Position numbers and translations under genes: made by a program. Under the pieces are notes generated by a model. The model was not told the origin of the DNA. It saw only the letters and a program-made list of their open reading frames with translations, and ran no database searches. A DNA stretch of 64,000 nucleotides from Escherichia coli (lineage in GTDB: Bacteria > Pseudomonadota > Gammaproteobacteria > Enterobacterales > Enterobacteriaceae): the NCBI RefSeq assembly GCF_044324875.1, contig NZ_CP172185.1. One strand, given 5' to 3'. This document shows positions 869-51,769 of the stretch, one piece after another; within the stretch, counting starts at the first letter, position 1; the number at the start of each line of letters is the position of its first letter.

Positions 869-958
869 GGAGAGATGCCGGAGCGGCTGAACGGACCGGT
901 CTCGAAAACCGGAGTGGGGGCAACTCCACCGGGGGTTCAAATCCCCCTCTCTCCGCCA
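869..958 (+). tRNA. serU: tRNA-Ser (anticodon CGA), 90 nt, long variable arm
   Basis: GGAGAGATGCCGGAGCGGCTGAACGGACCGGTCTCGAAAACCGGAGTGGGGGCAACTCCACCGGGGGTTCAAATCCCCCTCTCTCCGCCA. Anticodon stem CCGGT/ACCGG with loop CTCGAAA gives anticodon CGA. The variable arm differs from the attR copy by two compensatory changes. Confidence 0.9.
898..958 (+). repeat. attL core: 61 bp 3' portion of tRNA-Ser, directly repeated at 47168..47228 with 2 mismatches
   Basis: GGTCTCGAAAACCGGAGT[G/A]GGGGCAACTC[C/T]ACCGGGGGTTCAAATCCCCCTCTCTCCGCCA occurs at both ends of the phage-gene block. Integrase gene lies immediately inside. Confidence 0.75.
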
Positions 959-34031: not shown

Positions 34032-35474
34032 ATGGGTAAAGGCAGCAGTAAGGGGCATACCCCGCGCGAAGCGAAGGACAACCTGAAGTCCACGCAGTTG
34101 CTGAGTGTGATCGATGTCATCAGCGAAGGGCCGATACAAGGACCGGTGGATGGATTAAAAAGCGTGCTGCTGAACGGTACGCCGGTGCTGGACAGTGAGG
34201 GGAATACCAATATATCCGGCGTCACGGTGGTATTCCGGGCCGGTGAGCAGGAGCAGACGCCGCCGGAGGGATTTGAATCCTCCGGCTCCGAGACGGTGCT
34301 GGGTACGGAAGTGAAGTACGACACGCCGATTACCCGGACCATCACGTCGGCAAACATCGACCGTCTGCGCCTGACCTTCGGTGTGCAGGCACTGGTGGAA
34401 ACCACCTCAAAGGGGGACCGGAATCCGTCGGAAGTCCGCCTGCTGGTTCAGATACAGCGTAACGGTCGCTGGTTAACGGAAAAAGACATCACCATTAAGG
34501 GCAAAACCACCTCGCAGTATCTGGCCTCGGTGGTGGTGGGTAACCTGCCGCCGCGCCCGTTCAGTATCCGGATGCGCAGGATGACGCCGGACAGCACCAC
34601 AGACCAGCTGCAGAACAAAACGCTCTGGTCGTCATACACCGAAATCATCGATGTGAAACAGTGCTACCCGAACACGGCACTGGTCGGTGTGCAGGTGGAT
34701 TCGGAGCAGTTCGGCAGCCAGCAGGTGAGCCGTAATTATCATCTTCGCGGGCGCATTCTGCAGGTGCCGTCGAACTATAACCCGCAGACGCGGCAATACA
34801 GCGGTATCTGGGACGGAACGTTTAAACCGGCATACAGCAACAACCCGGCCTGGTGTCTGTGGGATATGCTGACCCATCCGCGCTACGGCATGGGGAAACG
34901 TGTTGGCGCAGCGGATGTGGATAAATGGGCGCTGTATGTCATCGGCCAGTACTGCGACCAGTCAGTGCCGGACGGCTCTGGTGGCACGGAGCCGCGCATC
35001 ACCTGTAATGCCTGGCTGACCACACAGCGTAAGGCGTGGGATGTGCTCAGTGATTTCTGCTCGGCGATGCGCTGTATGCCGGTATGGAACGGGCAGACGC
35101 TGACGTTCGTGCAGGACCGACCGTCGGATAAGGTGTGGACCTATAACCGCAGTAATGTGGTGATGCCGGATGATGGCGCGCCGTTCCGCTACAGCTTCAG
35201 CGCCCTGAAGGACCGCCATAATGCCGTTGAGGTGAACTGGAGTGACCCGGATAACGGCCAGGAGACGGCGACAGAGCTTGTGGAGGACACGCAGGCCATT
35301 GCCCGTTACGGTCGTAACGTCACGAAGATGGATGCCTTTGGCTGTACCAGCCGGGGGCAGGCACACCGCGCCGGGCTGTGGCTGATTAAAACAGAACTGC
35401 TGGAGACGCAGACCGTGGATTTCAGCGTGGGTGCTGAAGGGCTTCGCCATGTACCGGTGCAAAATGGCATCTGA
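34032..35474 (+). pseudogene. J: Host specificity protein J, N-terminal fragment (interrupted by IS21-family insertion at about 35458)
   Basis: MGKGSSKGHTPREAKDNLKSTQLLSVIDVISEGPIQGPVDGLKSVLLNGTPVLD matches lambda J. The reading frame runs into the IS and stops at 35474. Confidence 0.85.
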
Positions 35475-35659
35475 ATCGATCGCAGTTTGGCATTCGAATC
35501 GATCATGATTTGGCATCCATCTCCGATCACAGTTTGGCATCACAATCGATCACGATTTGGCATGCTTCCGATCATTGATTGGCATCCTGCCAGTCACTCC
35601 GGGAATTAACTCTTTTCACCACAGTCTCCATTGCCGTGTTTAAACCAGTGGAGACGTCA

Positions 35660-37225
35660 ATGTCCAGAAAGAGAAAATCCAGGAGCACTATGGAAACCTG
35701 TTTTAAGATCCTTCAGCTCAAGTTCGACAAGAAGCTGACTAACCGTTGTATCGGACTGACGTTACACATCAGCGCCTCAACCGTTTTTGAGGTTCTTGCC
35801 CGCTTCAAAGCCTCTTCTCTGTCATGGCCATTACCTGCTGATATATCCCATGACACGCTGGAGAAACTCATTTTTCCGCCCAAAGACACCTTTGCATCAG
35901 AGCTTGTAATGCCTGACATGTTGTACTTCGATACGGAAATGAGAAAACCAGGTGTGACGCGGCAACTGTTGTGGATGGAATACAAGGCACAGGCGGGTAA
36001 CAAAGCGATGGGATACTCGCACTTCTGCCGTTGCTACCGGGAGTGGAAAAAAACGCGACGTCTCTCCATGCGCCAGGAGCATCGTGCCGGCGAAAAGCTT
36101 TTTATCGACTTCTGTGGTCCTACGGTTCCTGTTATTAATCCGGACACCGGTGAGATACGCCGCGTGGCAATCTTCGTGGCCGTAATGGGGGCGTCCAACT
36201 ATACCTACGTTGAAGCGTGCGAAGGTCAGGACATGATGTCATGGTTAAATGCCCACAGCCGTTGCCTGACCTTCCTGGGCGGCGTACCGAAGCTGCTCAT
36301 CCCCGATAACCTCAGAAGCGCAGTGAAAAAGGCCGATCGATATGAGCCTGTCATCAACGACAGTTATCAGGCACTGGCTGAGCACTATGGCACGGTTATC
36401 ATCCCGGCCCGACCACGCAAACCTAAAGATAAACCAAAAGCAGAAAACGGCGTCCTCATCGTTGAACGATGGCTTCTTGCCCGCATCCGTAATGAAACCT
36501 TCCACACGCTCAGGGCGCTGAATGCGCGCCTTAGGGAGTTACTGACAGACATGAATAACCGGCCAATGAAGGGGTACGGCAATCAAACCCGTGCAGAACG
36601 CTTCCGCATACTGGATGCGCCAGCACTCTCTCCGCTGCCTCTGGCACCTTATGAATACACGGAATACAAAGCTGTGAAGGTTGGCCCTGACTACCACGTT
36701 GAATATGCCCGTCACTGGTACTCCGTTCCACACGAACTGGTCGGTCAGCGTCTGTCACTGAAGGCGGGGCAGTCGGTGGTACAGCTCTGGCACAAGGGGC
36801 AGTGTGTGGCGCAACATCCGCGCAGCACACATGAATATAAACACACAACCAATCCGCTTCACATGCCAGAGCGCCACCGGCAGCACGGGACATGGACACC
36901 GGAACGCCTGATCGAGCAGGGAAAACGTACGGGCCCGTCCACAGGCCGGGTGGTTGAATCCATGCTGAAGGCAAAACCCCATCCGGAACTGGCTTATCGT
37001 GCAGTTCTGGGGCTGCTGGCACTTCAGAAAAAATACGGCCCGGAACGGCTGGAAAAGGCCTGTTACGTTGCCCTGCACTATAACGCCCCTGACAGACGCT
37101 TTATCGACAATCTGCTGCGTCACCATCGGGAGAACCTGGAGCTTCCATTATCCCGCCAGGGCGAACAACATCCGGCATATGCTTCAGAGCATGAAAACCT
37201 GCGTGGTCCGGGCTACTACCACTGA
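35660..37225 (+). CDS. istA: IS21-family transposase IstA
   Basis: Internal ATG at 35660 with GGAG RBS; about 521 aa with N-terminal HTH and DDE-type core. Confidence 0.85.
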   Translation: MSRKRKSRSTMETCFKILQLKFDKKLTNRCIGLTLHISASTVFEVLARFKASSLSWPLPADISHDTLEKLIFPPKDTFASELVMPDMLYFDTEMRKPGVTRQLLWMEYKAQAGNKAMGYSHFCRCYREWKKTRRLSMRQEHRAGEKLFIDFCGPTVPVINPDTGEIRRVAIFVAVMGASNYTYVEACEGQDMMSWLNAHSRCLTFLGGVPKLLIPDNLRSAVKKADRYEPVINDSYQALAEHYGTVIIPARPRKPKDKPKAENGVLIVERWLLARIRNETFHTLRALNARLRELLTDMNNRPMKGYGNQTRAERFRILDAPALSPLPLAPYEYTEYKAVKVGPDYHVEYARHWYSVPHELVGQRLSLKAGQSVVQLWHKGQCVAQHPRSTHEYKHTTNPLHMPERHRQHGTWTPERLIEQGKRTGPSTGRVVESMLKAKPHPELAYRAVLGLLALQKKYGPERLEKACYVALHYNAPDRRFIDNLLRHHRENLELPLSRQGEQHPAYASEHENLRGPGYYH

Positions 37226-37241
37226 CAGAAGGAACAACAGT

Positions 37242-37997
37242 ATGAGTGATAACCTGTTAAACAAACTGACCCAACTGAAACTCCCGGCGATGGCCGGGAG
37301 CCTGATACGGCAGCGGGAAACGCCTCAGACCTACGACGAACTGTCGTTCGAGGAAAGGCTGACGCTGCTGGTTGATGACGAGCTTCTGAGCAGGGAAAAC
37401 AGCCGTGTGGCACGGTTGAGAAAAAATGCCGGCCTGAAATACCAGGCAACACCGGAAGGGCTGCGCTATCCGGCCTCAAGAGGTCTGCGGGCTGAACAGA
37501 TGAGAGAACTGCTGAACGGCCACTACATAACCCACAGGAAAAACCTGCTGATAACCGGTCCGACAGGATGTGGCAAGAGCTGGATAGCCAATGCGCTGGG
37601 CGAACAGGCATGTCGACAGAAACACAGCGTCCGGTACTGTAGAACCGGGCGATTACTGGAACAACTGGCTCAGGGACGTGTTGATGGCAGCTGGCTGAAA
37701 TATCTGAAACAGTTGCAAAAAATACAGGTTCTAATCCTGGACGATCTGGGGCTGGAACAGTTAAGTAACGCCCAGTGTAATGACCTTCTGGAGCTCATAG
37801 AGGATCGTTACGGACAAAGCAGCACGATAGTGGTAAGCCAGTTCCCGGTAGATAAATGGCATGGTCTGATGGAGAACCCAACAACAGCAGATGCCATCCT
37901 GGACAGACTGGTACATAACTCACACCGAGTGGTCCTTCAGGGAGAGTCACTGAGGAAAAATCCCCCGGTAGTGGAAAGCAGCGAAAAAACGCGTTAA
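37242..37997 (+). CDS. istB: IS21-family ATP-binding helper IstB
   Basis: MSDNLLNKLTQLKLPAMAGSL...LITGPTGCGKSWIANALG (Walker A)...LILDDLG (Walker B). Confidence 0.85.
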   Translation: MSDNLLNKLTQLKLPAMAGSLIRQRETPQTYDELSFEERLTLLVDDELLSRENSRVARLRKNAGLKYQATPEGLRYPASRGLRAEQMRELLNGHYITHRKNLLITGPTGCGKSWIANALGEQACRQKHSVRYCRTGRLLEQLAQGRVDGSWLKYLKQLQKIQVLILDDLGLEQLSNAQCNDLLELIEDRYGQSSTIVVSQFPVDKWHGLMENPTTADAILDRLVHNSHRVVLQGESLRKNPPVVESSEKTR

Positions 37998-38096
37998 AAA
38001 GCGGTAGAAAAAGTTAAGTTCCCGGTTGATCGAATGGATGCGAATCGCTGATCGGACTTCGATGCCAATCCGTGATCGAATAGAGCGGAATACGCA

Positions 38097-40219
38097 TACC
38101 GGGCGATGTCATTGAAATCTGTGATGATGACTATGCCGGTATCAGCACCGGTGGTCGTGTGCTGGCGGTGAACAGCCAGACCCGGACGCTGACGCTCGAC
38201 CGTGAAATCACGCTGCCATCCTCCGGTACCACGCTGATAAGCCTGGTTGACGGAAGTGGCAATCCGGTCAGCGTGGAGGTTCAGTCCGTCACCGACGGCG
38301 TGAAGGTAAAAGTGAGCCGGGTTCCTGACGGCGTTGCCGAGTACAGCGTGTGGGGGCTGAAGCTGCCGACGCTGCGCCAGCGCCTGTTCCGCTGCGTGAG
38401 TATCCGTGAGAACGACGACGGCACGTATGCCATCACTGCCGTGCAGCATGTACCGGAAAAAGAGGGCATCGTGGATAACGGGGCACACTTTGACGGTGAC
38501 CAGAGCGGCACGGTGAATGGTGTCACGCCGCCAGCAGTGCAGCACCTGACTGTCGAAGTCACCGCAGACAGCGGGGAGTATCAGGTACTGGCCCGCTGGG
38601 ACACGCCGAAGGTGGTGAAAGGCGTGAGTTTCATGCTTCGCCTGACCGTGGCAGCGGATGACGGCAGTGAGCGGCTGGTCAGCACGGCCCGGACGACGGA
38701 AACCACATACCGCTTCAGGCAGCTGGCGCCGGGGAACTACAGGCTGACAGTCCGGGCAGTAAATGCCCGGGGGCAGCAGGGAGACCCGGCGTCGGTATCG
38801 TTCCGGATTGCCGCACCGGCAGCGCCGTCGCGGATTGAGCTGACGCCGGGCTATTTTCAGATAACCGCCACGCCGCATCTTGCCGTTTATGATCCGACGG
38901 TGCAGTTTGAGTTCTGGTTCTCGGAAAAGCGGATTACCGATATCAGGCAGGTTGAAACCACAGCCCGTTATCTTGGTACCGGAAGTCAGTGGCTTGTCTC
39001 CGGCCAGAATATTAAACCTGGCCATGATTATTACTTTTATATCCGCAGTGTTAACACTGTCGGTAAATCGGCATTCGTGGAGGCAGTCGGTCGGGCGAGT
39101 AATGATCCTGCCGGTTACCTTAATTTTTTCAGGGGGGCGATAAATAAAACGCATCTGGGACGGGAGATCAATGAACGCATTGATGCCTCTGCACGGCGCA
39201 CTGAAGTTGAGCAACTGGAGAATGCGATTAACCGCGAAATGACGCAGCTGGAGAATGCGATTAACCGCGAAATGACGCAGCTGGAGAAAGATGTGAGGCA
39301 GCGTGCGGAGCGTGATATCGCAGAGGTGACGAAAAAAATCACGGCGTCTGAAAACAGCATAACGGAACTGGTGGCGAAAAAGAGCGGTGAACAGTCGCTG
39401 GCCATTGCGAAAGTCGACAGGAAAGTTGACAGCGTGAGCAGTGAAATCCGGCAGACAGTAAGCAGGAGCACGGAGGAGAACAGCCGACAGATAGCGCAGG
39501 TCAGGCAGTATGTTGATGATAAAAGTGCGCAAATAAGTACTGTTGTGGCGAAAAAGAGCGGTGAACAGTCAATGGCCATTGCGGAAGTTGACAGAAAAGT
39601 TGACAGGATGGGCAGCGAAATCCGGCAGACAGTAAGCAGGAGCACGGAGGAGAACAGCCGACAGATAGCGCAGATCAGACAGTATGTTGATGATAAGGGA
39701 AGTCAGATCAAACAGAGCACGGATAAAAAACTGGGATCCTGGAATGCCAGCATTGAGCAGATACAGAAAGTTCAGGAGGACACGCGCCGGAACCTGAACA
39801 GCATGTGGGCTGTGAAGCTGCAGCAGACACGGGATGGACGTCTCTATATTGCAGGTATTGGTGCCGGAATCGAAAATACGTCTGACGGAATTCAGAGTCA
39901 GATCCTGATGCAGGCAGATCGTATTGCGATGATTAACCCGGAAAATGGCAATACAACACCTTTGTTTGTGGCTCAGGGTGATCAGCTGTTCATGAATGAT
40001 GTTTTCATGAAAAAACTGACCGTGGATTTTGCCAGAGTGACGGGAGATATCCGGTCAGATAATTTTCATTCCGGTAGTCCGGGGTGGCGTTTATCAAGAA
40101 ACGGCAGCCTTGAAATTAACTCAGGAAGGCCCGGCGCAGGCCGCCTGTTTTTCAATGGCGAGCGAATCGACGTATATGACGATAACAATGTGTTAAGAGT
40201 ACGACTGGGGAGACTGTAA
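38097..40219 (+). pseudogene. J: Host specificity protein J, C-terminal fragment (distal tip diverges from lambda and carries tandem duplications)
   Basis: Continues the lambda-J-like sequence [43 protein letters not shown]. Track ORF 38159..40219. Confidence 0.85.
39214..39718 (+). repeat. Tandem duplications inside the J distal region: 2 x 33 bp and 2 x about 174 bp
   Basis: CTGGAGAATGCGATTAACCGCGAAATGACGCAG twice ([11 protein letters not shown] x2). A larger unit starting GTGGCGAAAAAGAGCGGTGAACAGTC repeats at about 39371 and 39545 with about 90 percent identity. Confidence 0.7.
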
Positions 40220-41162: not shown

Positions 41163-41408
41163 ATGAAAATAATCGTCTGCACTTTTTTGCTGTTTCTTGT
41201 ATCAGGTTGCGCGGGGTACCGTTCCGTTACGGAGAGAGTCCGGTGCACCGGTGTGCTGAGTCCCGGGGTTTTACAGCGAGCTTATACGGTAGATCTTACA
41301 GGGAAAATAGAAACGAAAAGCGGCACTGTGTATAAAGTATCAGCTCCGAGATTTTATGGTCAGTGGGTGAGTGAAGATATGTTTACGAAAGTTTCGTGCG
41401 TGAAGTAA
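41163..41408 (+). CDS. Small predicted lipoprotein (81 aa); possible Cor-like superinfection-exclusion protein
   Basis: MKIIVCTFLLFLVSGC lipobox; located between J and the side tail fibre, where cor-type genes sit in some lambdoid phages. Function is inferred from position only. Confidence 0.5.
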   Translation: MKIIVCTFLLFLVSGCAGYRSVTERVRCTGVLSPGVLQRAYTVDLTGKIETKSGTVYKVSAPRFYGQWVSEDMFTKVSCVK

Positions 41409-41483: not shown

Positions 41484-42812
41484 ATGGCGGCTGTAAAAAT
41501 TTCAGGCGTGCTCAGGGACGGAACCGGAAAACCGGTACCGGGATGCATTATTGAGCTGAAAGCGAAGAGAACCAGCGAGACAGTCATCGCCACGACAGTG
41601 GCTTATGGCATGCCGGAAGAGACGGGGAGTTACAGTATGGATGTGGAGCCAGGAATATACAGGGTGACACTCAATACAGAAGGTTACCGTCCTTCGTATG
41701 TGGGAGATATCGTGGTCAGGGAGGATTCTTCACCGGGAACACTGAATAAATTTCTGATGGAGATGGAAGATGCTCCTTATTATCCGAAGGCGTTGTCAGA
41801 GCTGGAGGCTGTGGTGCAGTCCATACTGCACAGAGCAGAGTCCGCGGCATCTGAGGCGGAGGAAGCCCGGAAGCGAGCAGCATCTGCCCGGGGACCACGA
41901 GGAGAGAAAGGGGATACCGGCGCTCGTGGTGAAAGAGGCATTACCGGGCCACAGGGGCCAAAAGGTGAAACAGGAGCACGTGGCCCGGCAGGACCACAGG
42001 GACCAAAAGGTGAAACAGGTGAACGCGGTCCGGCAGGTCCACAGGGACCAAAGGGCGATACAGGTGAACGCGGCCCGGCAGGTCCACAGGGACCAAAAGG
42101 TGAAACAGGTGCACGTGGTCCGGAAGGTCCACAGGGAGCAAAAGGTGAAACAGGTGAACGCGGCCCGGCAGGTCCACAGGGAGCAAAGGGCGAAACAGGT
42201 GCACGTGGTCCGGAAGGCCCTCAGGGTCTGAAGGGAGAAAAGGGTGAGCGAGGAGAAAAAGGCCCTAAGGGGGATAAAGGAGATCCGGGAGGTCCACAGG
42301 GACCAAAAGGTGAAACAGGTGAACGTGGCCCGGCAGGTCCACAGGGACCAAAAGGTGAAACAGGTGAACGTGGCCCGGCAGGTCCACAGGGACCAAAGGG
42401 CGATACAGGTGAACGCGGTCCGGCAGGTCCACAGGGGCCAAGAGGGTATACAGGTGAACGCGGGCCGACAGGTCTACAGGGGCCAAGAGGGTATACAGGT
42501 GAACGCGGGCCGGCAGGTCCACAGGGGCCAAGAGGAGAAGCGGGGCGGCCAGCGAGCGTCGGAAGTGTTTATTCCGTGGGGTCTTATGTTCTGGGGATCA
42601 TAGAACGAAATCATGAGATAACAAATACCCGTCAAATACCCGGGTATCGTATCAGACAGGCCGTTATTGTGTCGTCGTCATCGGATAAACTTACAGATAT
42701 CCGCTTTTTATTTGGCAATCCTATGCTTGGTACATGGATGTTATGCACAACTAACATGGCGGTGAATAATATCAGTGGGACGATTTGGGGCCTGTTTCAG
42801 AGAATACTGTGA
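41484..42812 (+). CDS. stf: Side tail fibre protein with collagen-like Gly-X-Y repeats
   Basis: N-terminal tail-fibre domain ([63 protein letters not shown]) followed by about 70 G-X-Y triplets. Confidence 0.85.
41884..42546 (+). repeat. Collagen-like triplet repeat array (tandem about 45 bp units) within the tail fibre gene
   Basis: Repeated GGTCCACAGGGACCAAAAGGTGAAACAGGTGAACGCGGCCCGGCA-type units encoding [15 protein letters not shown]; explains the many antisense ORFs in the track here. Confidence 0.8.
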
Positions 42813-42827
42813 CAGGGGGAGAAATGA

Positions 42828-42950
42828 ATGAAGGTCGATAAAATCACGTCACCAGTGTGGGCTGACAGGGGTCATACGACCATAAACTGTATAGTGAAGT
42901 TTTCAGACGCGGAAACAGAATGTGTATTTACAGCAAGTGCGGATGATCCG
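42828..42950 (+). pseudogene. tfa: Tail fibre assembly protein, N-terminal 41 codons (interrupted by IS66-family insertion)
   Basis: ATG at 42828 with GGGGGAG RBS; MKVDKITSPVWADRGHTTINCIVKFSDAETECVFTASADDP then a stop inside the IS end. Confidence 0.6.
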
Positions 42951-43032
42951 TAACCGGCTCATTTAAACCGTCTGGTCTGTTTCCTCCGGCTCTACAAAAA
43001 TAATGTCCATCATTTTTAATGGACACTATCGT

Positions 43033-43680
43033 ATGAAACACCGGACCTGGATCACTGAAGCTTTACGTCTTCACTTTGAAGAACATTTACCCCGGGTTGT
43101 GGCCGGGCGTCGCCTGGGTGTACCAAAATCAACAGTTTGTAGTATGTTCGTGCGCTTTCGGAGAGCTGGCCTTTCGTGGCCTTTGCCCGCAGGCATGTCG
43201 GAGCAGGAACTTGATGCCTGCCTTTACGGACAATTTTCCACGGTACCAGTCGTACGTCCTGAAAGCACCGTTATATCCGAAGCCCCCGTGGTAAAAAAAC
43301 GTCCCCGGCGGCCCAACTTCCCTTATGAGTTTAAAATCGCCTTAGTGGAGCAGTCACTGCAGCCCGGAGCCTGTGTGGCGCAGATCGCCCGGGAAAACGG
43401 AATCAACGATAACCTGCTCTTCAACTGGCGCCATCAATACCGGAAAGGTGGCCTGCTGCCTTCCGGAAAAAATATGCCGGCACTGCTTCCCGTGACGTTA
43501 ACGCCGGAGCCGGATAATAAAATCCCGGCCCCCGCACAGGAACCAGAGCAGATAAATACACCGTCCGACAGTCTGTGTTGTGAGCTGGTTCTGCCGGCCG
43601 GAACTCTCAGGCTTAAAGGTAAACTGACGCCGGCGTTATTACAGACACTTATCCGCGAAATAAAAGGGAGCAGCCACTGA
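43033..43680 (+). CDS. tnpA: IS66-family accessory protein TnpA (orf1)
   Basis: Internal Met of track ORF 43003..43680; HTH-like N-terminus. Confidence 0.7.
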   Translation: MKHRTWITEALRLHFEEHLPRVVAGRRLGVPKSTVCSMFVRFRRAGLSWPLPAGMSEQELDACLYGQFSTVPVVRPESTVISEAPVVKKRPRRPNFPYEFKIALVEQSLQPGACVAQIARENGINDNLLFNWRHQYRKGGLLPSGKNMPALLPVTLTPEPDNKIPAPAQEPEQINTPSDSLCCELVLPAGTLRLKGKLTPALLQTLIREIKGSSH

Positions 43681-44027
43681 TGATATCTCTCCCTGCAGGT
43701 TCGCGTATCTGGCTGGTTGCAGGTATCACCGATATGCGAAATGGCTTTAACGGCCTGGCATCAAAAGTTCAGAACGTCCTGAAGGATGACCCGTTCTCCG
43801 GACACCTGTTCATCTTCCGCGGACGCCGGGGTGACCAGATAAAAGTGTTGTGGGCTGACAGTGACGGACTGTGCCTCTTCACCAAACGCCTGGAGCGGGG
43901 CCGCTTCGTCTGGCCAGTCACCCGTGACGGCAAGGTGCACCTTACTCCGGCTCAGTTATCCATGCTTCTTGAAGGTATCAACTGGAAGCACCCGAAACGA
44001 ACGGAACGCGCTGGAATCCGCATATAA
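43680..44027 (+). CDS. tnpB: IS66-family TnpB (orf2)
   Basis: 115 aa; MISLPAGSRIWLVAGITDMRNGFNGLASKVQNVLKDDPFSGHLFIFRGRRGDQIKVLWAD is the typical IS66 Orf2. Confidence 0.85.
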   Translation: MISLPAGSRIWLVAGITDMRNGFNGLASKVQNVLKDDPFSGHLFIFRGRRGDQIKVLWADSDGLCLFTKRLERGRFVWPVTRDGKVHLTPAQLSMLLEGINWKHPKRTERAGIRI

Positions 44028-44046
44028 CCCGTTGTAAAGTGAGGAT

Positions 44047-45618
44047 ATGGACACCTCACTTGCTCATGAGAACGCCCGCCTGCGGGCACTGTTGCAGACG
44101 CAACAGGACACCATCCGCCAGATGGCTGAATACAACCGCCTGCTCTCACAGCGGGTGGCGGCTTATGCTTCCGAAATCAACCGGCTGAAGGCGCTGGTTG
44201 CGAAACTGCAACGTATGCAGTTCGGTAAAAGCTCAGAAAAACTTCGTGCAAAAACCGAACGGCAGATACAGGAAGCACAGGAGCGAATCAGCGCACTTCA
44301 GGAAGAAATGGCGGAAACGCTGGGTGAGCAATATGACCCGGTACTGCCATCCGCCCTGCGCCAGTCTTCAGCCCGTAAACCGTTACCGGCCTCACTTCCC
44401 CGTGAAACCCGGGTTATCCGGCCGGAAGAGGAATGCTGTCCTGCCTGTGGTGGTGAACTCAGTTCTCTGGGATGTGATGTGTCAGAGCAACTGGAGCTTA
44501 TCAGCAGCGCCTTTAAGGTTATCGAAACACAACGTCCGAAACAGGCCTGTTGCCGGTGCGACCATATCGTGCAGGCACCAGTACCTTCAAAACCCATTGC
44601 ACGCAGTTATGCCGGAGCGGGGCTTCTGGCCCATGTTGTCACCGGGAAATATGCAGACCATCTGCCGTTATACCGCCAGTCAGAAATATACCGTCGTCAG
44701 GGAGTGGAGCTGAGCCGTGCCACACTGGGGCGCTGGACAGGTGCTGTTGCTGAACTGCTGGAGCCGCTGTATGACGTCCTGCGCCAGTATGTGCTGATGC
44801 CCGGTAAAGTCCATGCTGATGATATCCCCGTCCCGGTCCAGGAGCCGGGCAGCGGTAAAACCCGGACAGCCCGGCTGTGGGTCTACGTCCGTGATGACCG
44901 TAACGCCGGTTCACAGATGCCCCCGGCGGTCTGGTTCGCGTACAGTCCGGACCGGAAAGGTATCCATCCACAAAATCACCTGGCCGGTTACAGCGGTGTG
45001 CTTCAGGCCGATGCTTACGGTGGTTACCGGGCGTTATACGAATCCGGCAGAATAACGGAAGCCGCGTGTATGGCTCATGCCCGGAGAAAAATCCACGATG
45101 TGCATGCAAGAGCGCCCACCTACATCACCACGGAAGCCCTGCAGCGTATCGGTGAACTGTATGCCATCGAGGCAGAGGTCCGGGGCTGTTCAGCAGAACA
45201 GCGTCTGGCGGCAAGAAAAGCCAGAGCCGCGCCACTGATGCAGTCACTGTATGACTGGATACAGCAACAGATGAAAACACTGTCGCGTCACTCAGATACG
45301 GCAAAAGCGTTCGCATACCTGCTGAAACAGTGGGATGCACTGAACGTGTACTGCAGTAATGGCTGGGTGGAAATCGACAACAACATCGCAGAGAACGCCT
45401 TACGGGGAGTGGCCGTAGGCCGGAAAAACTGGATGTTCGCGGGTTCCGACAGCGGTGGTGAACATGCGGCGGTGTTGTACTCGCTGATCGGCACATGCCG
45501 TCTGAACAATGTGGAGCCAGAAAAGTGGCTGCGTTACGTCATTGAACATATCCAGGACTGGCCGGCAAACCGGGTACGCGATCTGTTGCCCTGGAAAGTT
45601 GATCTGAGCTCTCAGTAA
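44047..45618 (+). CDS. tnpC: IS66-family transposase TnpC (orf3)
   Basis: 523 aa with N-terminal coiled coil, Cys cluster CPACGG...CCRCDH, and DDE-type core. Confidence 0.85.
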
Positions 45619-45648
45619 ATATCAATACGGTTCTGACGAGTCGCTTAC

Positions 45649-46110
45649 GATGATCCTGAGTCTTACGGTCGTGAAATATTTGAAGCCTGCATAAGAGGTG
45701 ATGCAGGGCCGGTAGGTGAGTACCGGGCAAATGATGATATGGCTGTGGAAGAAGCACGCAGGATGAAAAACGCGGAGATAAATGCCTGGCGTGATGCGAT
45801 GGAGGCGTCAGGGTATGTTTTTGAGCACAGAGGACGGAAATGGGATTATGGAAAGGAAACCATGACACGTCTTGGAATGTCGGCATCAGCGGCCAGAGGC
45901 GGTGTGTTGCCGGAAGGATTTTTCTGGACGGACGCAGAGAATAATGATGTACCGATGACGGCAGATGAACTGATATCCCTGAGTGATGCTGCTGGTAAAG
46001 CGATGTTCAGGAAAGGCCTTGAAATACATATAAGGCAAAGGGAGATGAAAAAGGCAATAGCAGAACTGAGTGACAGTGAAACCATTCTGGCGTACAGGGT
46101 TGGATGGTGA
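45649..46110 (+). pseudogene. tfa: Tail fibre assembly protein, C-terminal fragment
   Basis: In frame with the N-terminal fragment once the IS and one TSD copy are removed (..ADDPESYGREIFEACIRGDAGPVGEY..); track ORF 45739..46110. Confidence 0.6.
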
Positions 46111-46127
46111 AACTGATAAAAAAACCC

Positions 46128-46160
46128 CTCTGAAAATTCTGTCAGAGGGGGGCAAGGATC
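46128..46160. terminator. 9 bp perfect hairpin CCCCTCTGA/TCAGAGGGG with flanking A-run (T-run on minus strand)
   Basis: Located just after tfa; geometry favours minus-strand termination. Confidence 0.4.
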
Positions 46161-46336
46161 TATATTTATTATGCGGTAATGCTTTCACTCCGGTAATTAA
46201 TTTCAGTGATTAACTGCTTTCGATCAATAAAGGAATTGCAAAAAGGTGATCTTGTTCACGACATTGTGGATGATAATATGCCTGATGTCTGAATCCGGAA
46301 ACAGTGATCTGGCGGGTTTCATGTGAAGTTGACGGA

Positions 46337-46368
46337 TAAAAAATCCGCACGACCAGACAGACGTGCGG
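46337..46368 (-). terminator. Rho-independent terminator downstream of the ykgJ-like gene
   Basis: CCGCACG-loop-CGTGCGG hairpin, followed on the minus strand by a T-run. Confidence 0.5.
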
Positions 46369-46475
46369 TTTACGAAATTCGTAACAAGAGGCTTTTCTAG
46401 GGATCACGTGGTGCGTGCCACGTGAAATTTTTGTAGCGCAAAATGTGTAATGTGTAAATACAAGGAAGGAAAAAG

Positions 46476-46805
46476 TTAAATCGGTGGAAGTCCATACCGG
46501 GAACGTGCACGGTTACATGCTTCGTTTTCAATACCATTTTCACCAGACATGGCAAATTCCCGGCACGTTGATGAACGGTTTTCGTAGATGGTACAGCTCG
46601 CTTCTTTACCTGGTGTTCCTGCAAGGGCAATACATCTGGGGTTTTTCTGGTTTGTACCGATCATGCATCGGTGCAAAGGCGATACTTGTTCAGTAAGTCT
46701 GGCTGGAATGGTGCCGCCAGCATCGTCGGCTTCGGCCCAGTAAAAAGAGACGCGGAAAAATGCACAACAGGCACCACACGTTATGCATGGATTTGGATTG
46801 CTCAT
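46476..46805 (-). CDS. YkgJ-family (UPF0153) Cys-rich putative metal-binding protein; cargo gene at the prophage right end
   Basis: [31 protein letters not shown]...[16 protein letters not shown] closely resembles recalled E. coli YkgJ (CxxCGxCC motif). Confidence 0.75.
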
Positions 46806-47167
46806 AATTCACCACAGCTATAAATTATAAAGAAAACCGCAGCATGTCGTATGCAAGAACGTGCTGCAGCTGGCTGGTTAACTTTCGATAGTGCGAGTAT
46901 TGAATGATTTCCAGCCGTTACCGATTTTATATAACTGCAGTGGAATTATTCAACACAGGCAAAACGGAATAAGCTGAGAAAAAAGCGTACTTTCCCAATC
47001 TGGGGCAAATCACGTCTGAATGACACCTGACAACAGATGGTGGCCTCAAGAAGGCTTGGAATATTCTTCTTTAATGTTATGTAAATTATTGATTTTTCGT
47101 GTACGATTTTAAGACATTTATTCCAAGAAAAATTTTTAACTCTTTGATTTTTCGACTCTGTATCATC

Positions 47168-47228
47168 GGTCTCGAAAACCGGAGTAGGGGCAACTCTACC
47201 GGGGGTTCAAATCCCCCTCTCTCCGCCA
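47168..47228 (+). repeat. attR: partial 3' copy of tRNA-Ser with the host-type variable arm
   Basis: GGTCTCGAAAACCGGAGTAGGGGCAACTCTACCGGGGGTTCAAATCCCCCTCTCTCCGCCA; lacks the tRNA 5' half. Confidence 0.75.
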
Positions 47229-47775
47229 CTTTATCAATGACTTATCTCCCGACTTCCCGCCTTGCTTTTCCTAAACAGAACAATCGTAGAATATTCTTGA
47301 AGGGTTAGATCGTCACTGTTTTCTGTTCGATACTGTGACATTCAGCACTTGATTCGCTATGGATCTGACAGGAAGGTTTCGAGCGAAAATCTGCAATTAT
47401 TCAGTCGTTTTCTTATCGGTCACCATTATTCTTTTAGACATTGATCCTACAAAGCTGCCGCAAAGTTGGTGGTGGGAACTGAAGTTGCGTAGAGAAGTGG
47501 TCAATAATTGAGCAAAAAAAGGAACGCGGCCGTCAGATTAAAGCCGCGGGACAAAGTCCATAATTTCCAAGAGTTGTTGAATTTCCCAGCTTTTTTGAAA
47601 GCCTTCGTATCATACTAACAAGTAAAAAAGGTTTAAATACCAAAATTAACCTATATTTCTGGTTAGCTTTACCATGACAGATGACTTGCTCCTGGAGACA
47701 TTGGCGCAGCCAGTCTGTATTGGTGAGTTGTGTATTTATTGTTCGCCGTTTTCTCAGTTTTTTCTACAGACATAA

Positions 47776-47815
47776 TAAAAAAGACACGTCTCAAGCATGA
47801 GCGTGTCTGAGTTTG
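47776..47815 (-). terminator. Rho-independent terminator downstream of zinT
   Basis: AGACACG...CGTGTCT hairpin, followed on the minus strand by TTTTTTATT. Confidence 0.5.
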
Positions 47816-47895
47816 TCTTATTTATTTGTCTTGGTAAATTATTGTCGTTACTACCAGGCACTGTTCTGTTAAATAATTGAATCAGCGAAAAAAAA

Positions 47896-48546
47896 TCAAT
47901 GAGACATCATTTCCTCGACCACTTCTTCGCTACTCAACTGATAGGGATAATACGTTGGCCAGTTTTCCATTTCATTTAATAAAGATTGCTGTGAATCATT
48001 ACCCATAAAAATGTGAAAATGAGATGATTTTCGTGGTGCAATTATATGATCGCTAAATTGAATATATTTAGGGGCTTTGCTTTCAGGATCTTTACATTCG
48101 AATAAATAACGAACGCCTTTCTTACCTGATTTATAGGTGAGTATTTTGTATCCATCGTAATCATATTTACAGGATGTTGTTTCATTATTTCTATGGAATT
48201 CAACAATGCCGTCCTCAATGCCAATCATCTCGATATCTGTCACATAACCTTTGCGATAATAATCTTTAATTTCAGCAAATGTTTTGGTTTTATCTGCATC
48301 CGCTTTCTTCTGAAAGACGGGGTCAAGTTTGCCACTTTGCAGTAAAGGATAAACGGATTGCCATACTCCATCCCAGTCACTTAGCGTTCGGTTTTGTACA
48401 TTGGCATCATCAAAAACACCATTAGCAGCTTTTTGTTCGACCTCTGTTAAGGGTTTGCCGTGTGAGTGATGACCATGCGAAAAGGCAGGAGCGCTAACAA
48501 TAAAGACACCTAAAGCAACAGCCAGTTTATGAAGACGAATCGCCAA
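47896..48546 (-). CDS. zinT: Zinc/cadmium-binding periplasmic protein ZinT (YodA)
   Basis: 216 aa with signal peptide and His-rich [12 protein letters not shown]; recognised as ZinT. Confidence 0.9.
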
Positions 48547-48802
48547 AACAGTTTCCTCCAGAGTTAATGTATATAATGTGTAATGTTATATTGTAACATA
48601 TAACAAAATGCAACAACTCTTAGGAAACGAGTGCAAAGTTACCTCAGGTATATTTTCCTATCTTATTGAAATGACATAAATTATGTCGATGATTTGAGGT
48701 TGATGACAAACGAAACATAACCTGATGTGATCTGCGTAGGCCGGATAGGGCGCTCGCGCCGCATCCGGCAGGGATAACGCGTACTTTGTCGGTAATATGA
48801 AG

Positions 48803-49438
48803 TTATAGAGATAATTTGTTGTGAACCTGCTTGCGTAACCGGTTGAAAAGGGAAAGCAACTTCTTATACCGTAAGGCTAAAAGCAGTACCGCCAGCCCAG
48901 CGTAGATGAGTGGCTGCGGTGAAATAATCTTCACTGACCACAGATAATGTATTGGGGCCAGGATCGCGACAAGATAGACGAAATTATGCAACTGTTGCCA
49001 GTGCTTGCCGAGTTTTCGCTGCATCGCCTGGGTTGAAGTAAACGCTAAAGCAAGCAAAATAACCCAGCTGATAATTCCTAACGTTAAATAAGGCCGGGTA
49101 ATTAACTCCTTACCTAATAACGCCAGATTATTCACGCCCAGCTCCAGTAATGCGTAACTGGTTAAATGCAGTGTCGCCCAGGCAAAGCACCATAAGCCTA
49201 ACAGGCGGCGAGTGCGTATCAATAACGGCTGTTTTGCGTAGCGTGCCAGAGGTGTGATTAACAAGGTCGCCAGCAAAAATTTCAGTGCAGTGCGACCAGT
49301 AAAATGCTGAATATCTTTCACTGGATCGGCACCCAGTCCACCGTGATTGATCGCCCAGACCAGCCAGAGAAACGGCAACAATCCGGCAAGATGCAGGCAA
49401 ACTTTCATCCATGTCACCTGTTTTGCTGTCAGACGCAT
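48803..49438 (-). CDS. msrQ: Methionine sulfoxide reductase haem-binding subunit MsrQ (YedZ)
   Basis: 211 aa polytopic membrane protein immediately downstream of msrP. Confidence 0.9.
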
Positions 49439-50449
<1,011 letters not shown>

Positions 50450-50551
50450 TCACACTTTTTTGTCGTTAGCCAGCAAGAGCCGTTTACTGTTAATCTGTCA
50501 GGGAGTGTCCTCCCTAACAGTAGCAGAGATCTGCTTTTACATATTTATGCA

Positions 50552-50965
50552 TTAACTGCCACGATAGGTTGAATACCCATATTGGCTAAGTAATAAAGGC
50601 ACATGATAATGCTCGTTCACTTTATTAATATGAAATTCAACGGGGATCTCAGGGAAGAAACTTTCAAGATTTTGTTTCTTGAAATAGTCCCCGGTTTTAA
50701 ATACGACACGGTAATCGCCCGTAGTTGCAGTTTGCTCGGGCCACAGTGCCTTAATTCGTCCATCCTTATCTGTTTTGGCGGTATTAAGTTGTAACCAGCC
50801 GTTGTCCGCTTTCTTTTCAAGAGTGACTGTCACGTCGGCAGCGGGTTTTCCTGTTTGCTGGTTCAAAATGTGCACGCTAAGAATGTTTTGTTGTGCAGCA
50901 TAGACCAAAGAAGGTAATGAAAATGCAGCCGTTACTACGGAGAGTACTAAATAACGCTTTAACAT
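50552..50965 (-). CDS. hiuH: 5-hydroxyisourate hydrolase (transthyretin-like) HiuH
   Basis: 137 aa with signal peptide and C-terminal YRGS motif. Confidence 0.85.
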
Positions 50966-51097
50966 GTTTATATCCTTGTCATGTGAATGAGTTTTGAGGA
51001 TAGCGAAAAAGCGTCCAGGGTAACCTTACAGCAGCATTACAATTTTGTAATGAACCAGGCTGTTTCTATAACATATGATTTATGGCATATTATTTTC

Positions 51098-51769
51098 ATG
51101 AAGATTTTACTTATTGAAGATAATCAAAGGACCCAGGAGTGGGTAACGCAGGGGCTTTCCGAAGCGGGTTATGTCATTGATGCCGTTTCTGATGGCAGAG
51201 ATGGGCTTTATCTTGCGCTGAAGGATGATTATGCATTGATCATTCTGGATATTATGCTTCCGGGTATGGATGGCTGGCAGATCTTACAAACGTTAAGAAC
51301 AGCAAAGCAAACCCCTGTTATTTGCCTTACTGCAAGGGATTCTGTCGATGACAGAGTCAGAGGGCTGGACAGTGGAGCAAATGATTATCTGGTAAAACCT
51401 TTTTCATTTTCTGAGTTGCTGGCAAGGGTTCGGGCACAATTAAGGCAACATCATGCTTTGAATTCAACATTAGAAATCAGTGGCTTAAGAATGGACTCTG
51501 TTAGTCAAAGTGTGAGCAGGGACAATATCAGTATTACACTGACGCGCAAGGAGTTTCAGTTACTTTGGCTACTGGCCTCCAGAGCTGGCGAAATTATACC
51601 CAGAACGGTTATTGCGAGTGAAATTTGGGGAATCAACTTTGATAGTGATACCAATACGGTGGACGTCGCCATTCGCAGGCTCCGCGCAAAAGTTGATGAT
51701 CCTTTTCCTGAAAAGCTAATCGCCACAATCCGGGGGATGGGCTATTCATTCGTAGCGGTAAAAAAATAA
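51098..51769 (+). CDS. hprR: Two-component response regulator HprR (YedW), OmpR family
   Basis: Internal ATG at 51098 (MKILLIEDNQRTQEW) of track ORF 50987..51769; receiver plus winged-helix domains. Confidence 0.85.
   Translation: MKILLIEDNQRTQEWVTQGLSEAGYVIDAVSDGRDGLYLALKDDYALIILDIMLPGMDGWQILQTLRTAKQTPVICLTARDSVDDRVRGLDSGANDYLVKPFSFSELLARVRAQLRQHHALNSTLEISGLRMDSVSQSVSRDNISITLTRKEFQLLWLLASRAGEIIPRTVIASEIWGINFDSDTNTVDVAIRRLRAKVDDPFPEKLIATIRGMGYSFVAVKK

What the first reader, a model, noticed from the sequence alone, without database searches (positions are those of the whole stretch)
42942..45656. IS66-family element splitting the tail fibre assembly gene, with GATGATCC target duplication
A three-ORF IS66-type element (tnpA-tnpB-tnpC, GTAA-type imperfect terminal repeats) lies between two copies of GATGATCC. 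Removing it restores an about 193 aa tfa frame. This is a second independent IS hit in the tail module, reinforcing that the prophage is decaying.
Basis: seen in the sequence. Interest (0 to 1): 0.55.

Follow-up and report, generated by a model that had tools for sequence, protein, structure and literature searches.

The report
ISCro1 insertion splitting a prophage tail-fibre chaperone gene
An intact copy of the common E. coli insertion sequence ISCro1 (IS66 family) has jumped into a small gene just after the side tail-fibre gene of a lambda-like prophage and cut it in two; this is an ordinary mobile-element insertion.

Summary
Window 42950-45648 is a 2,699-bp IS66-family element. It has tnpA, tnpB and tnpC, imperfect terminal inverted repeats that start GTAA, and an exact 8-bp direct repeat GATGATCC on each side.

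The element is 100% identical to copies that RefSeq annotates as 'IS66-like element ISCro1 family'. At least 1,492 of 5,426 complete E. coli genomes hold a near full-length copy.

Removing the element and one repeat copy gives a 191-aa open frame (not 193). That protein is 100% identical to a known E. coli protein, and 22 complete genomes carry the uninterrupted site.

The split gene is not a lambda-type Tfa. Its only Pfam domain is DUF4376, the family of the experimentally supported tail-fibre chaperones of Alteromonas phages V22 and A5. 'Tail-fibre assembly gene' is therefore a reasonable functional label but the wrong family, and the function is inferred.

The 'second IS hit' is real: an IS21-family element with a TACCGG duplication splits gene J at 35458-38096. 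Neither insertion occurs in any complete E. coli genome searched, and the other core prophage genes tested are open.

One mild curiosity: three further independent ISCro1 insertions lie within the same 1.8 kb of this module in other strains.

Verdict: real, correctly read, already known, low interest.

The parts
42942..42949 (.). Left copy of the 8-bp target-site duplication GATGATCC
   Evidence: Read directly. The empty site in AR_0085 has a single copy.
42950..45648 (+). Complete ISCro1-type insertion sequence (IS66 family), 2,699 bp
   Evidence: 100% identical full-length copies occur in many E. coli genomes and plasmids, annotated 'IS66-like element ISCro1 family'. The same termini are seen at independent insertions in L001, L002 and L004.
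42950..42971 (+). Left terminal inverted repeat (GTAACCGGCTCATTTAAACCGT)
   Evidence: (pair I2).
43003..43680 (+). tnpA, accessory protein, 225 aa
   Evidence: NF038385 at 296 bits against a cut-off of 150. RefSeq annotates the same 678-nt gene in L001 and L002. The N-terminal residues 21-75 resemble IS21 IstA.
43680..44027 (+). tnpB (IS66-type accessory protein, 115 aa); its ATG shares one base with the tnpA stop codon (TGATG)
   Evidence: NF033819 at 129 bits against a cut-off of 50; sequence read.
44047..45618 (+). tnpC, DDE transposase, 523 aa
   Evidence: NF033517 at 478 bits against a cut-off of 180. Pfam finds LZ_Tnp_IS66, zf-IS66, DDE_Tnp_IS66 and DDE_Tnp_IS66_C.
45627..45648 (-). Right terminal inverted repeat (GTAAGCGACTCGTCAGAACCGT on the minus strand)
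   Evidence: (pair I2).
45649..45656 (.). Right copy of the target-site duplication GATGATCC
42828..42949 (+). 5' fragment of the DUF4376 gene (codons 1-40 plus 2 nt). As it stands the ORF ends at 42953, using the TAA inside the element's GTAA end, and gives a 41-aa stub.
   Evidence: In the AlphaFold model this stub holds the three N-terminal beta strands, residues 3-37.
45657..46110 (+). 3' fragment of the DUF4376 gene (last base of codon 41 through the stop codon); holds the whole DUF4376 domain
   Evidence: in-frame join, 191 aa. Pfam PF14301 at residues 73-180, E 3e-20. 100% identical to P0002.
41484..42812 (+). Context: side tail-fibre gene (442 aa) with a collagen-like Gly-X-Y repeat; it ends 15 nt before the DUF4376 gene starts
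   Evidence: phrog_366 'tail fiber protein', E 2.6e-103. 45-nt repeat family D1. RefSeq name 'prophage tail fiber N-terminal domain-containing protein'.
35458..38096 (+). Context: the other insertion in the tail module, a 2,639-bp IS21-family element (istA, istB) flanked by TACCGG (35452-35457 and 38097-38102), splitting gene J (34032-35474 and 38159-40219)
   Evidence: NF033546 IS21 transposase and NF038214 IstB above their cut-offs; the lambda_TipJ profile matches positions 1-475 and 495-888 on the two J fragments.
897..958 (+). Context: left prophage attachment site, the 3' 62 nt of tRNA-Ser(CGA); it is repeated at 47167-47228, so the element lies about 1.5 kb inside the right end of a roughly 46-kb prophage
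   Evidence: tRNA; family D3, 97% identity.

Best explanation
A full-length, apparently functional copy of ISCro1 (IS66 family) transposed into codon 41 of a 191-aa gene. That gene lies directly downstream of the side tail-fibre gene of a lambda-like prophage integrated at the serU tRNA-Ser(CGA) gene of E. coli.

Shown:
- Staggered cutting and repair of the target left the 8-bp duplication GATGATCC.
- The gene is cut into a 41-aa stub, terminated by the TAA in the element's own GTAA end, and a promoterless 3' part that holds the entire DUF4376 domain.

Inferred: the gene product is an intermolecular tail-fibre chaperone of the DUF4376 class. The N-terminal beta strands would dock on the fibre tip, and the helical body with its beta hairpin would form a trimeric cap. 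If so, the insertion removes the ability to mature the side tail fibre.

Together with the IS21-family insertion in gene J, the prophage can no longer build a functional host-recognition apparatus. Its head, tail-tube, replication and integration genes are still open. Both insertions are recent, lineage-specific events.
For: - Element anatomy and family profiles.
- Identity to known copies: 100% matches in many genomes and plasmids named ISCro1 family. A 2,699-bp ISCro1 making an 8-bp duplication is described in PMC12115866.
- Empty site: 100% identity over 600 bp in AR_0085, plus 21 further genomes. The restored protein is 100% identical to P0002. ORF-191 homologues occur in the P-Eib prophages.
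- Gene function: only DUF4376 is found. phrog_1141 (tail category) matches full length at E 1.4e-62. DUF4376 proteins V22 gp27 and A5 gp9 are tail-fibre chaperones.
- Structure: the AlphaFold model has pLDDT 93.3, with three N-terminal strands, a helical body and a beta hairpin, as described for those chaperones. BFVD matches are phage DUF4376 proteins and one protein named 'Phage tail assembly chaperone protein'.
- Recency: no filled site in 5,426 complete genomes. The copy has zero differences from other copies.
- Second insertion.
- Remainder of the prophage open.
Against: - Nothing contradicts the insertion itself.
- The chaperone role is inferred. No solved structure matches by sequence.
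- PHROGs and some phage records call homologues 'tail fiber protein' rather than chaperone.
- A5 fibres fold without their chaperone (PMC10579305), so loss of the gene need not abolish fibre function.
- Side tail fibres are dispensable for plaque formation in laboratory lambda (general knowledge), so this hit alone might not inactivate the phage.
Confidence: 0.95

Rival explanations
1. The split gene encodes a structural distal tail-fibre subunit or receptor-binding adaptor, not an assembly chaperone. The insertion would then remove a virion component rather than a folding helper.
For: PHROG families 1141, 11571 and 1807 are labelled 'tail fiber protein'. Homologues in phages GER2, 1720a-02, Rac-SA53 and Av-05 are annotated 'tail fiber protein'. 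PMC10579305 itself proposes that these proteins may stay on as transient 'caps'.
Against: Those labels are automatic annotations. The only experimental data for DUF4376 proteins (V22 gp27) show a chaperone needed to produce active fibre. The model is a small helical protein with a beta hairpin, not a fibre-like beta structure.
Confidence: 0.2
2. The insertion is not neutral decay. It reflects a regional preference of ISCro1 for, or selection for insertions in, the tail-fibre and chaperone module of this prophage family.
For: There are four independent ISCro1 insertions with different 8-bp targets and both orientations within 1,834 bp of target DNA:
- AGTAATCA, window-equivalent 41404, in AR_0085.
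- GATAAACT, 42684, in SRR14687536.
- GATGATCC, 42942, in this window.
- GAGAATAA, 45937, in TUM9803.
Only 23 complete-genome records carry the module, and several of those are clonal duplicates.
Against: ISCro1 is very abundant, with up to 34 places per genome. Insertion sequences are generally enriched in prophages, where insertions are tolerated (PMC3072379). The four targets share no clear motif. The fourth case came from a far larger, undefined sampling frame. No formal test was run.
Confidence: 0.15
3. The element sits here through an assembly artefact, that is, a repeat misplaced by the assembler.
For: ISCro1 is multi-copy and identical between copies, which is the classic cause of misassembly. 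The filled site is not seen in any complete genome.
Against: A misjoin would not create an exact 8-bp duplication of a target that is single-copy in empty sites. It would also not place both element termini precisely at that target, in frame with a clean restoration.
Confidence: 0.02

Closest known systems
ISCro1 (IS66 family; first named in Citrobacter rodentium ICC168, widespread in E. coli, Shigella, Salmonella and Klebsiella plasmids)
   Same: The length is 2,699 bp and the duplication is 8 bp, as reported for ISCro1 in PMC12115866. 100%-identical copies are named 'IS66-like element ISCro1 family transposase' by RefSeq. The layout is the same tnpA (225 aa), tnpB (115 aa) and tnpC (523 aa).
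   Different: Nothing detectable differs. I could not compare with the ISfinder reference sequence itself. One paper quotes 2,824 bp for an ISCro1 in strain EC958 (PMC8764528), so published lengths vary.
IS679 and ISEc8 (other E. coli IS66-family elements)
   Same: They share the family architecture, GTAA-type ends and an 8-bp duplication (family features from my own knowledge of ISfinder and Han et al. 2001; not re-read here).
   Different: ISEc8 matches only about 71% over part of tnpC (H165-H171), so it is a different element. ISCro1-type TnpA is twice the usual length; the short IS66 TnpA profile NF047595 covers only residues 102-219. It also has an IstA-like N-terminal helix-turn-helix.
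DUF4376 tail-fibre chaperones: Alteromonas phage V22 gp27 and A5 gp9
   Same: It has a C-terminal DUF4376 domain, a size of about 190-240 aa, and a gene immediately downstream of the fibre gene. The predicted layout is N-terminal beta strands, a helical body and a beta hairpin.
   Different: No pairwise similarity was detectable at E below 1e-5. No Alteromonas phage appears among the genera counted in the tblastn search of phage records. The relation therefore rests on the shared Pfam family and the predicted architecture. The partner fibre here is a collagen-repeat lambdoid side fibre.
Lambda Tfa / Caudo_TAP (PF02413) tail-fibre assembly proteins
   Same: The position (downstream of the side tail-fibre gene) and the size (lambda Tfa is 194 aa, from my own knowledge) are alike, and the role is presumed to be analogous.
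   Different: There is no PF02413 match and no NCBIfam match. It is a different family.
ORF-191 of the P-Eib prophages of E. coli ECOR-9 (P-EibA, C, D, E)
   Same: The proteins are 57-60% identical over the full length and 191 aa long, in a lambdoid tail-fibre region.
   Different: In the P-Eib phages, and in TUM9803, a YadA-like (Eib-type) gene follows. In this window the next gene is a YkgJ-family gene on the opposite strand.

Membership tests
IS66 family of insertion sequences | Three consecutive same-strand genes: tnpA, tnpB and tnpC | tested here: met
   NF038385, NF033819 and NF033517 all score above their curated cut-offs.
IS66 family of insertion sequences | The tnpB start overlaps the tnpA stop, and tnpC starts about 20 nt after tnpB | tested here: met
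   TGATG at 43678-43682; the tnpB stop is at 44027 and the tnpC ATG at 44047.
IS66 family of insertion sequences | TnpC carries the IS66-type DDE domain with the zinc-finger and leucine-zipper modules | tested here: met
   PF03050 matches positions 1-283 of 284 at E 5e-103, together with PF13005, PF13007 and PF13817.
IS66 family of insertion sequences | Imperfect terminal inverted repeats of about 20-30 bp beginning 5'-GTAA | tested here: met
   (pair I2).
IS66 family of insertion sequences | 8-bp target-site duplication | tested here: met
   GATGATCC here. Independent copies have GAGAATAA and AGTAATCA. TAACCTTT is reported in PMC12115866.
IS66 family of insertion sequences | Demonstrated transposition of this copy | not testable with these tools
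   Indirect only: all three frames are intact, the copy has zero differences from many others, and there are several independent insertion sites.
ISCro1 (named element) | At least 95% nucleotide identity to the ISfinder reference sequence | not tested
   ISfinder is not available here. No copy was found in the first 50 kb of C. rodentium plasmid pCROD1. Indirect support comes from the RefSeq naming and the published 2,699-bp length.
Lambda-type tail-fibre assembly protein (Tfa, Pfam Caudo_TAP PF02413) | Match to PF02413 | tested here: not met
   The Pfam scan of the restored 191-aa protein returns only DUF4376. NCBIfam returns nothing.
DUF4376-class intermolecular tail-fibre chaperones (V22 gp27 type) | DUF4376 (PF14301) domain in the C-terminal half | tested here: met
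   Residues 73-180, E 3e-20.
DUF4376-class intermolecular tail-fibre chaperones (V22 gp27 type) | Encoded immediately downstream of the tail-fibre gene | tested here: met
   The fibre gene's stop codon ends at 42812 and the DUF4376 gene starts at 42828. The arrangement is the same in 22 genomes.
DUF4376-class intermolecular tail-fibre chaperones (V22 gp27 type) | Fold: N-terminal beta strands, alpha-helical body and beta-hairpin 'tentacle', resembling the intramolecular chaperone domains of T5 and K1F | tested here: inconclusive
DUF4376-class intermolecular tail-fibre chaperones (V22 gp27 type) | Required for production of active fibre | not testable with these tools
   Needs co-expression experiments.

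The most novel reading that the evidence does not exclude
ISCro1 has a regional insertion preference for, or insertions are positively selected in, the side tail-fibre and chaperone module of this serU-integrated, P-Eib-like prophage family. Four independent insertions at four different 8-bp targets fall within 1.8 kb in different strains. Repeated knock-out of phage host recognition by insertion sequences would then be a recurrent route of prophage domestication rather than random decay.
Probability: 0.15. Interest if true: 0.35.

Novelty: already known. Interest (0 to 1): 0.1.

Why it matters
The practical value is for annotation. The two fragments 42828-42953 and 45739-46110 should be annotated as one disrupted DUF4376 gene, and the prophage should be flagged as defective in host recognition because J and the fibre chaperone are both interrupted. 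It also gives a clean, datable pair of lineage-specific markers. Biologically it is one more example of insertion sequences accumulating in prophages. The only wider point is the hint that ISCro1 repeatedly hits this small module.

Tried and rejected
- Same insertion in other genomes. The junction queries found none among 5,426 complete E. coli genomes.
- Exact-protein look-up of the 41-aa stub. It returned two short contigs, but both are contig-end truncations of an empty site (they end ...GATGATCCT(G)), so they do not show the same insertion. One of them (L004) revealed a different ISCro1 insertion instead.
- ISCro1 reference in C. rodentium plasmid pCROD1. There is no copy in the first 50 kb, so identity to the type copy could not be measured.
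- Sequence search of PDB with the restored protein: no hit at E up to 1.
- A 6-kb reconstructed module query meant to count insertions in relatives. The collagen repeats fragmented the matches. It showed an IS66 element under the match only for AR_0085; the TUM9803 insertion lay outside the matched stretch.
- Promoter and terminator scan of 42600-46400. Nothing exceeded the shuffle expectation. The one clear stem-loop, CCCCTCTGA...TCAGAGGGG at 46125-46150, was scored on the minus strand.
Full report
What is at the coordinates. The sequence shows GATGATCC at 42942-42949 and again at 45649-45656, with exactly 2,699 bp between the two copies. The intervening element begins GTAACCGGCTCATTTAAACCGT and ends with the reverse complement of GTAAGCGACTCGTCAGAACCGT. 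This is an imperfect inverted repeat of about 22 bp that starts GTAA (pair I2).

The element holds three plus-strand ORFs. All three pass NCBI's curated cut-offs for IS66 TnpA (296 bits against 150), IS66 TnpB (129 against 50) and the IS66 transposase (478 against 180):
- 43003-43680, 225 aa.
- 43680-44027, 115 aa. Its ATG shares one base with the preceding stop codon (TGATG).
- 44047-45618, 523 aa, starting 20 nt after tnpB.

The transposase carries the complete Pfam set LZ_Tnp_IS66, zf-IS66, DDE_Tnp_IS66 (1-283 of 284) and DDE_Tnp_IS66_C. There are no frameshifts or stops. Every defining feature of the IS66 family that sequence can show is therefore met.

Which element it is. The 2,699 bp are 100% identical to full-length copies in many E. 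coli chromosomes and plasmids. RefSeq names the transposase of those copies 'IS66-like element ISCro1 family'. Of 5,426 complete genomes, 3,017 have some match and 1,492 have a copy covering at least 80%, with up to 34 places per genome.

In the plasmid collection, matches occur in Escherichia (2,005 records), Shigella (154), Salmonella (126) and Klebsiella (107); identical full-length copies were listed for all four genera. A published E. coli plasmid comparison describes 'a 2699 bp ISCro1' that created an 8-bp duplication (PMC12115866). I could not compare with the ISfinder type sequence. The first 50 kb of the C. rodentium plasmid I fetched holds no copy.

Is it a real insertion? Deleting 42950-45656 joins 42828-42949 to 45657-46110 in frame. 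The result is 191 codons plus a stop, with no internal stop.

A 600-bp reconstruction of the empty site matches E. coli AR_0085 at 100% in a single piece with one GATGATCC. It matches 21 further complete genomes at 98.7-99.8%, always annotated 'DUF4376 domain-containing protein' next to 'prophage tail fiber N-terminal domain-containing protein'. The restored protein is 100% identical to a database protein seen on 462 contigs (P0002). This rules out chance and makes assembly error very unlikely.

No complete genome carries the filled site. As it stands, the 5' fragment terminates at the TAA inside the element's own GTAA end and gives a 41-aa stub.

What the interrupted gene is. It starts 15 nt after the stop of the 442-aa side tail-fibre gene (41484-42812). 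That gene matches phrog_366 and contains a collagen-like repeat of 45-nt units.

Pfam finds only DUF4376 (residues 73-180, E 3e-20) and no Caudo_TAP. NCBIfam finds nothing. It is therefore not a member of the lambda Tfa family. PHROGs places it full length in phrog_1141, a tail-category family (E 1.4e-62).

Phage homologues at 57-61% identity include ORF-191 of the P-Eib prophages and several Escherichia phages (PhiR5_2, PhiR12_x). They are variously labelled 'tail fiber assembly protein', 'tail fiber protein' or 'hypothetical protein'.

The only experimental information on DUF4376 proteins that I found concerns Alteromonas phages. V22 gp27, encoded just downstream of the fibre gene, is essential for producing active fibre. 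A5 gp9 is its homologue. Both are proposed to act as trimeric caps resembling the intramolecular chaperone domains of the T5 and K1F fibres (PMC7289586, PMC10579305).

An AlphaFold model of the restored protein is confident (pLDDT 93.3). It shows three N-terminal strands (residues 3-37), a helical body, a beta hairpin (94-105) and a long C-terminal helix. This is the layout described for those chaperones. Foldseek against viral models returns DUF4376 proteins and one 'Phage tail assembly chaperone protein'.

Context and the 'second IS' claim. The window is E. coli. The flank 47800-51800 (zinT, msrQP, hiuH, hprR) is 100% identical to many strains. The prophage runs from the tRNA-Ser(CGA) gene at 869-958 to a 62-nt copy of that gene's 3' end at 47167-47228. 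The integrase gene lies next to the tRNA.

Gene J is indeed split. Its N-terminal 480 aa (34032-35474) and C-terminal 686 aa (38159-40219) match lambda_TipJ profile positions 1-475 and 495-888. Between them lies a 2,639-bp IS21-family element (35458-38096) with IstA and IstB above their cut-offs, flanked by a 6-bp TACCGG duplication. That insertion is also absent from all complete genomes.

The integrase, RecE-like exonuclease, replication initiator, large terminase, portal, major capsid and tape-measure genes are full-length open frames with strong family matches. The prophage has therefore been disabled in its host-recognition end by two recent, independent insertions. It has not been broadly eroded.

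Mechanism. The following steps are shown: an intact IS66-family element, precise termini, an 8-bp duplication of a target that is single-copy elsewhere, and truncation of the target ORF. The following are inferred from family knowledge: the DDE transposase TnpC, helped by TnpA and TnpB, made staggered cuts 8 bp apart at GATGATCC, and repair of the gaps duplicated the target. The consequence is also inferred. The side fibre would lose chaperone-assisted maturation, and the loss of J independently blocks tail-tip assembly and adsorption.

Something seen beyond the finding. In related prophages, ISCro1 has inserted independently at three other places in the same module:
- In TUM9803, in the same gene 288 bp further along the restored gene (duplication GAGAATAA, window-equivalent 45937, same orientation, element 99.93% identical).
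- In AR_0085, at the stop codon of a small lipoprotein ORF just upstream of the fibre gene (AGTAATCA, window-equivalent 41404, opposite orientation, element 98.6% identical).
- In a contig from SRR14687536, in the 3' end of the fibre gene (element end abutting GATAAACT, 42684, opposite orientation).

With this window that makes four sites within 1,834 bp of target DNA. Only 23 complete-genome records hold the module, and several are duplicates of one strain. This may reflect a regional preference or selection. It may equally reflect the abundance of ISCro1 and the tolerance of prophage late genes to insertion. I did not run a formal test and rate the hotspot reading at about 0.15.

Verdict. 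The observation and the interpretation are essentially correct. The element is a known insertion sequence in a known kind of target, so novelty is nil and interest is low. The corrections are the length (191 aa), the family of the interrupted gene (DUF4376 chaperone class, not lambda Tfa), and the emphasis (recent inactivation rather than advanced decay).

Noticed in passing
window 35452-38102: An IS21-family element (2,639 bp; istA 35579-37225 as listed, istB within 36999-37997) with a 6-bp TACCGG duplication splits gene J. No complete E. coli genome in the collection has this insertion.
   Followed up: yes
window-equivalents 41404, 42684 and 45937; L002:4644-7358, L004:1-850, L001:2643-5357: Three further independent ISCro1 insertions occur in other strains (AR_0085, SRR14687536, TUM9803). 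They have different 8-bp targets and orientations and lie within the same 1.8-kb fibre and chaperone module. This could be a hot region or just tolerated insertions.
   Followed up: partly
window 41811-42634: The side tail-fibre gene holds about 13 copies of a 45-nt unit encoding collagen-like Gly-X-Y repeats. Gene length differs between strains: 442 aa here and 529 aa in TUM9803, while the AR_0085 copy is annotated as a pseudogene. This suggests repeat-number variation.
   Followed up: no
window 897-958 and 47167-47228: The prophage attachment repeat is the 3' 62 nt of tRNA-Ser(CGA). The two copies differ at two positions (AGTGGGG...CTCCAC against AGTAGGG...CTCTAC) that look like a compensating pair in a tRNA stem.
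   Followed up: partly
window about 47680-47890, against L002:11300-12300: Relative to AR_0085, the window has no yodB (cytochrome b) gene between the right prophage end and zinT. About 780 bp are missing and the adjoining stretch aligns poorly. From 47800 onwards the window is 100% identical to other E. coli strains, so it appears to be a natural variant.
   Followed up: partly
window 43063-43227 (TnpA residues 21-75) against 35711-35875 (IstA residues 19-73, numbered from the ATG at 35657): The N-terminal extension of the long ISCro1-type TnpA is 36% identical (E 5e-9) to the N-terminal helix-turn-helix of the IS21 IstA in the same window. The IS66 TnpA profile also hits IstA at 55 bits. The two IS families appear to share a DNA-binding module.
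   Followed up: partly
window 45657-46110; hits H48 and P0073-P0120: The C-terminal DUF4376 part of the gene is shared at high identity with proteins of about 220 aa that have different N-terminal parts, and with another prophage type next to gene J. This suggests mosaic exchange, with the N-terminus matched to the partner fibre.
   Followed up: no
window 39211-39276 and 39371-39696: The C-terminal part of J holds a 33-nt tandem duplication and a 152-nt direct repeat (93% identical, 174 nt apart). These encode repeated coiled-coil-like segments.
   Followed up: no
window 41163-41408: A small ORF of 81 aa with a lipoprotein-like signal (MKIIVCTFLLFLVSGC...) lies between the phrog_425 membrane-protein gene and the fibre gene. 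Its function was not examined.
   Followed up: no
L001:5923-7233 against window 46200-46900: In TUM9803 a YadA-like (Eib-type) gene follows the DUF4376 gene, as in the P-Eib prophages. This window instead has a YkgJ-family gene on the opposite strand (46476-46805). The cargo at the prophage's right end differs between relatives.
   Followed up: no
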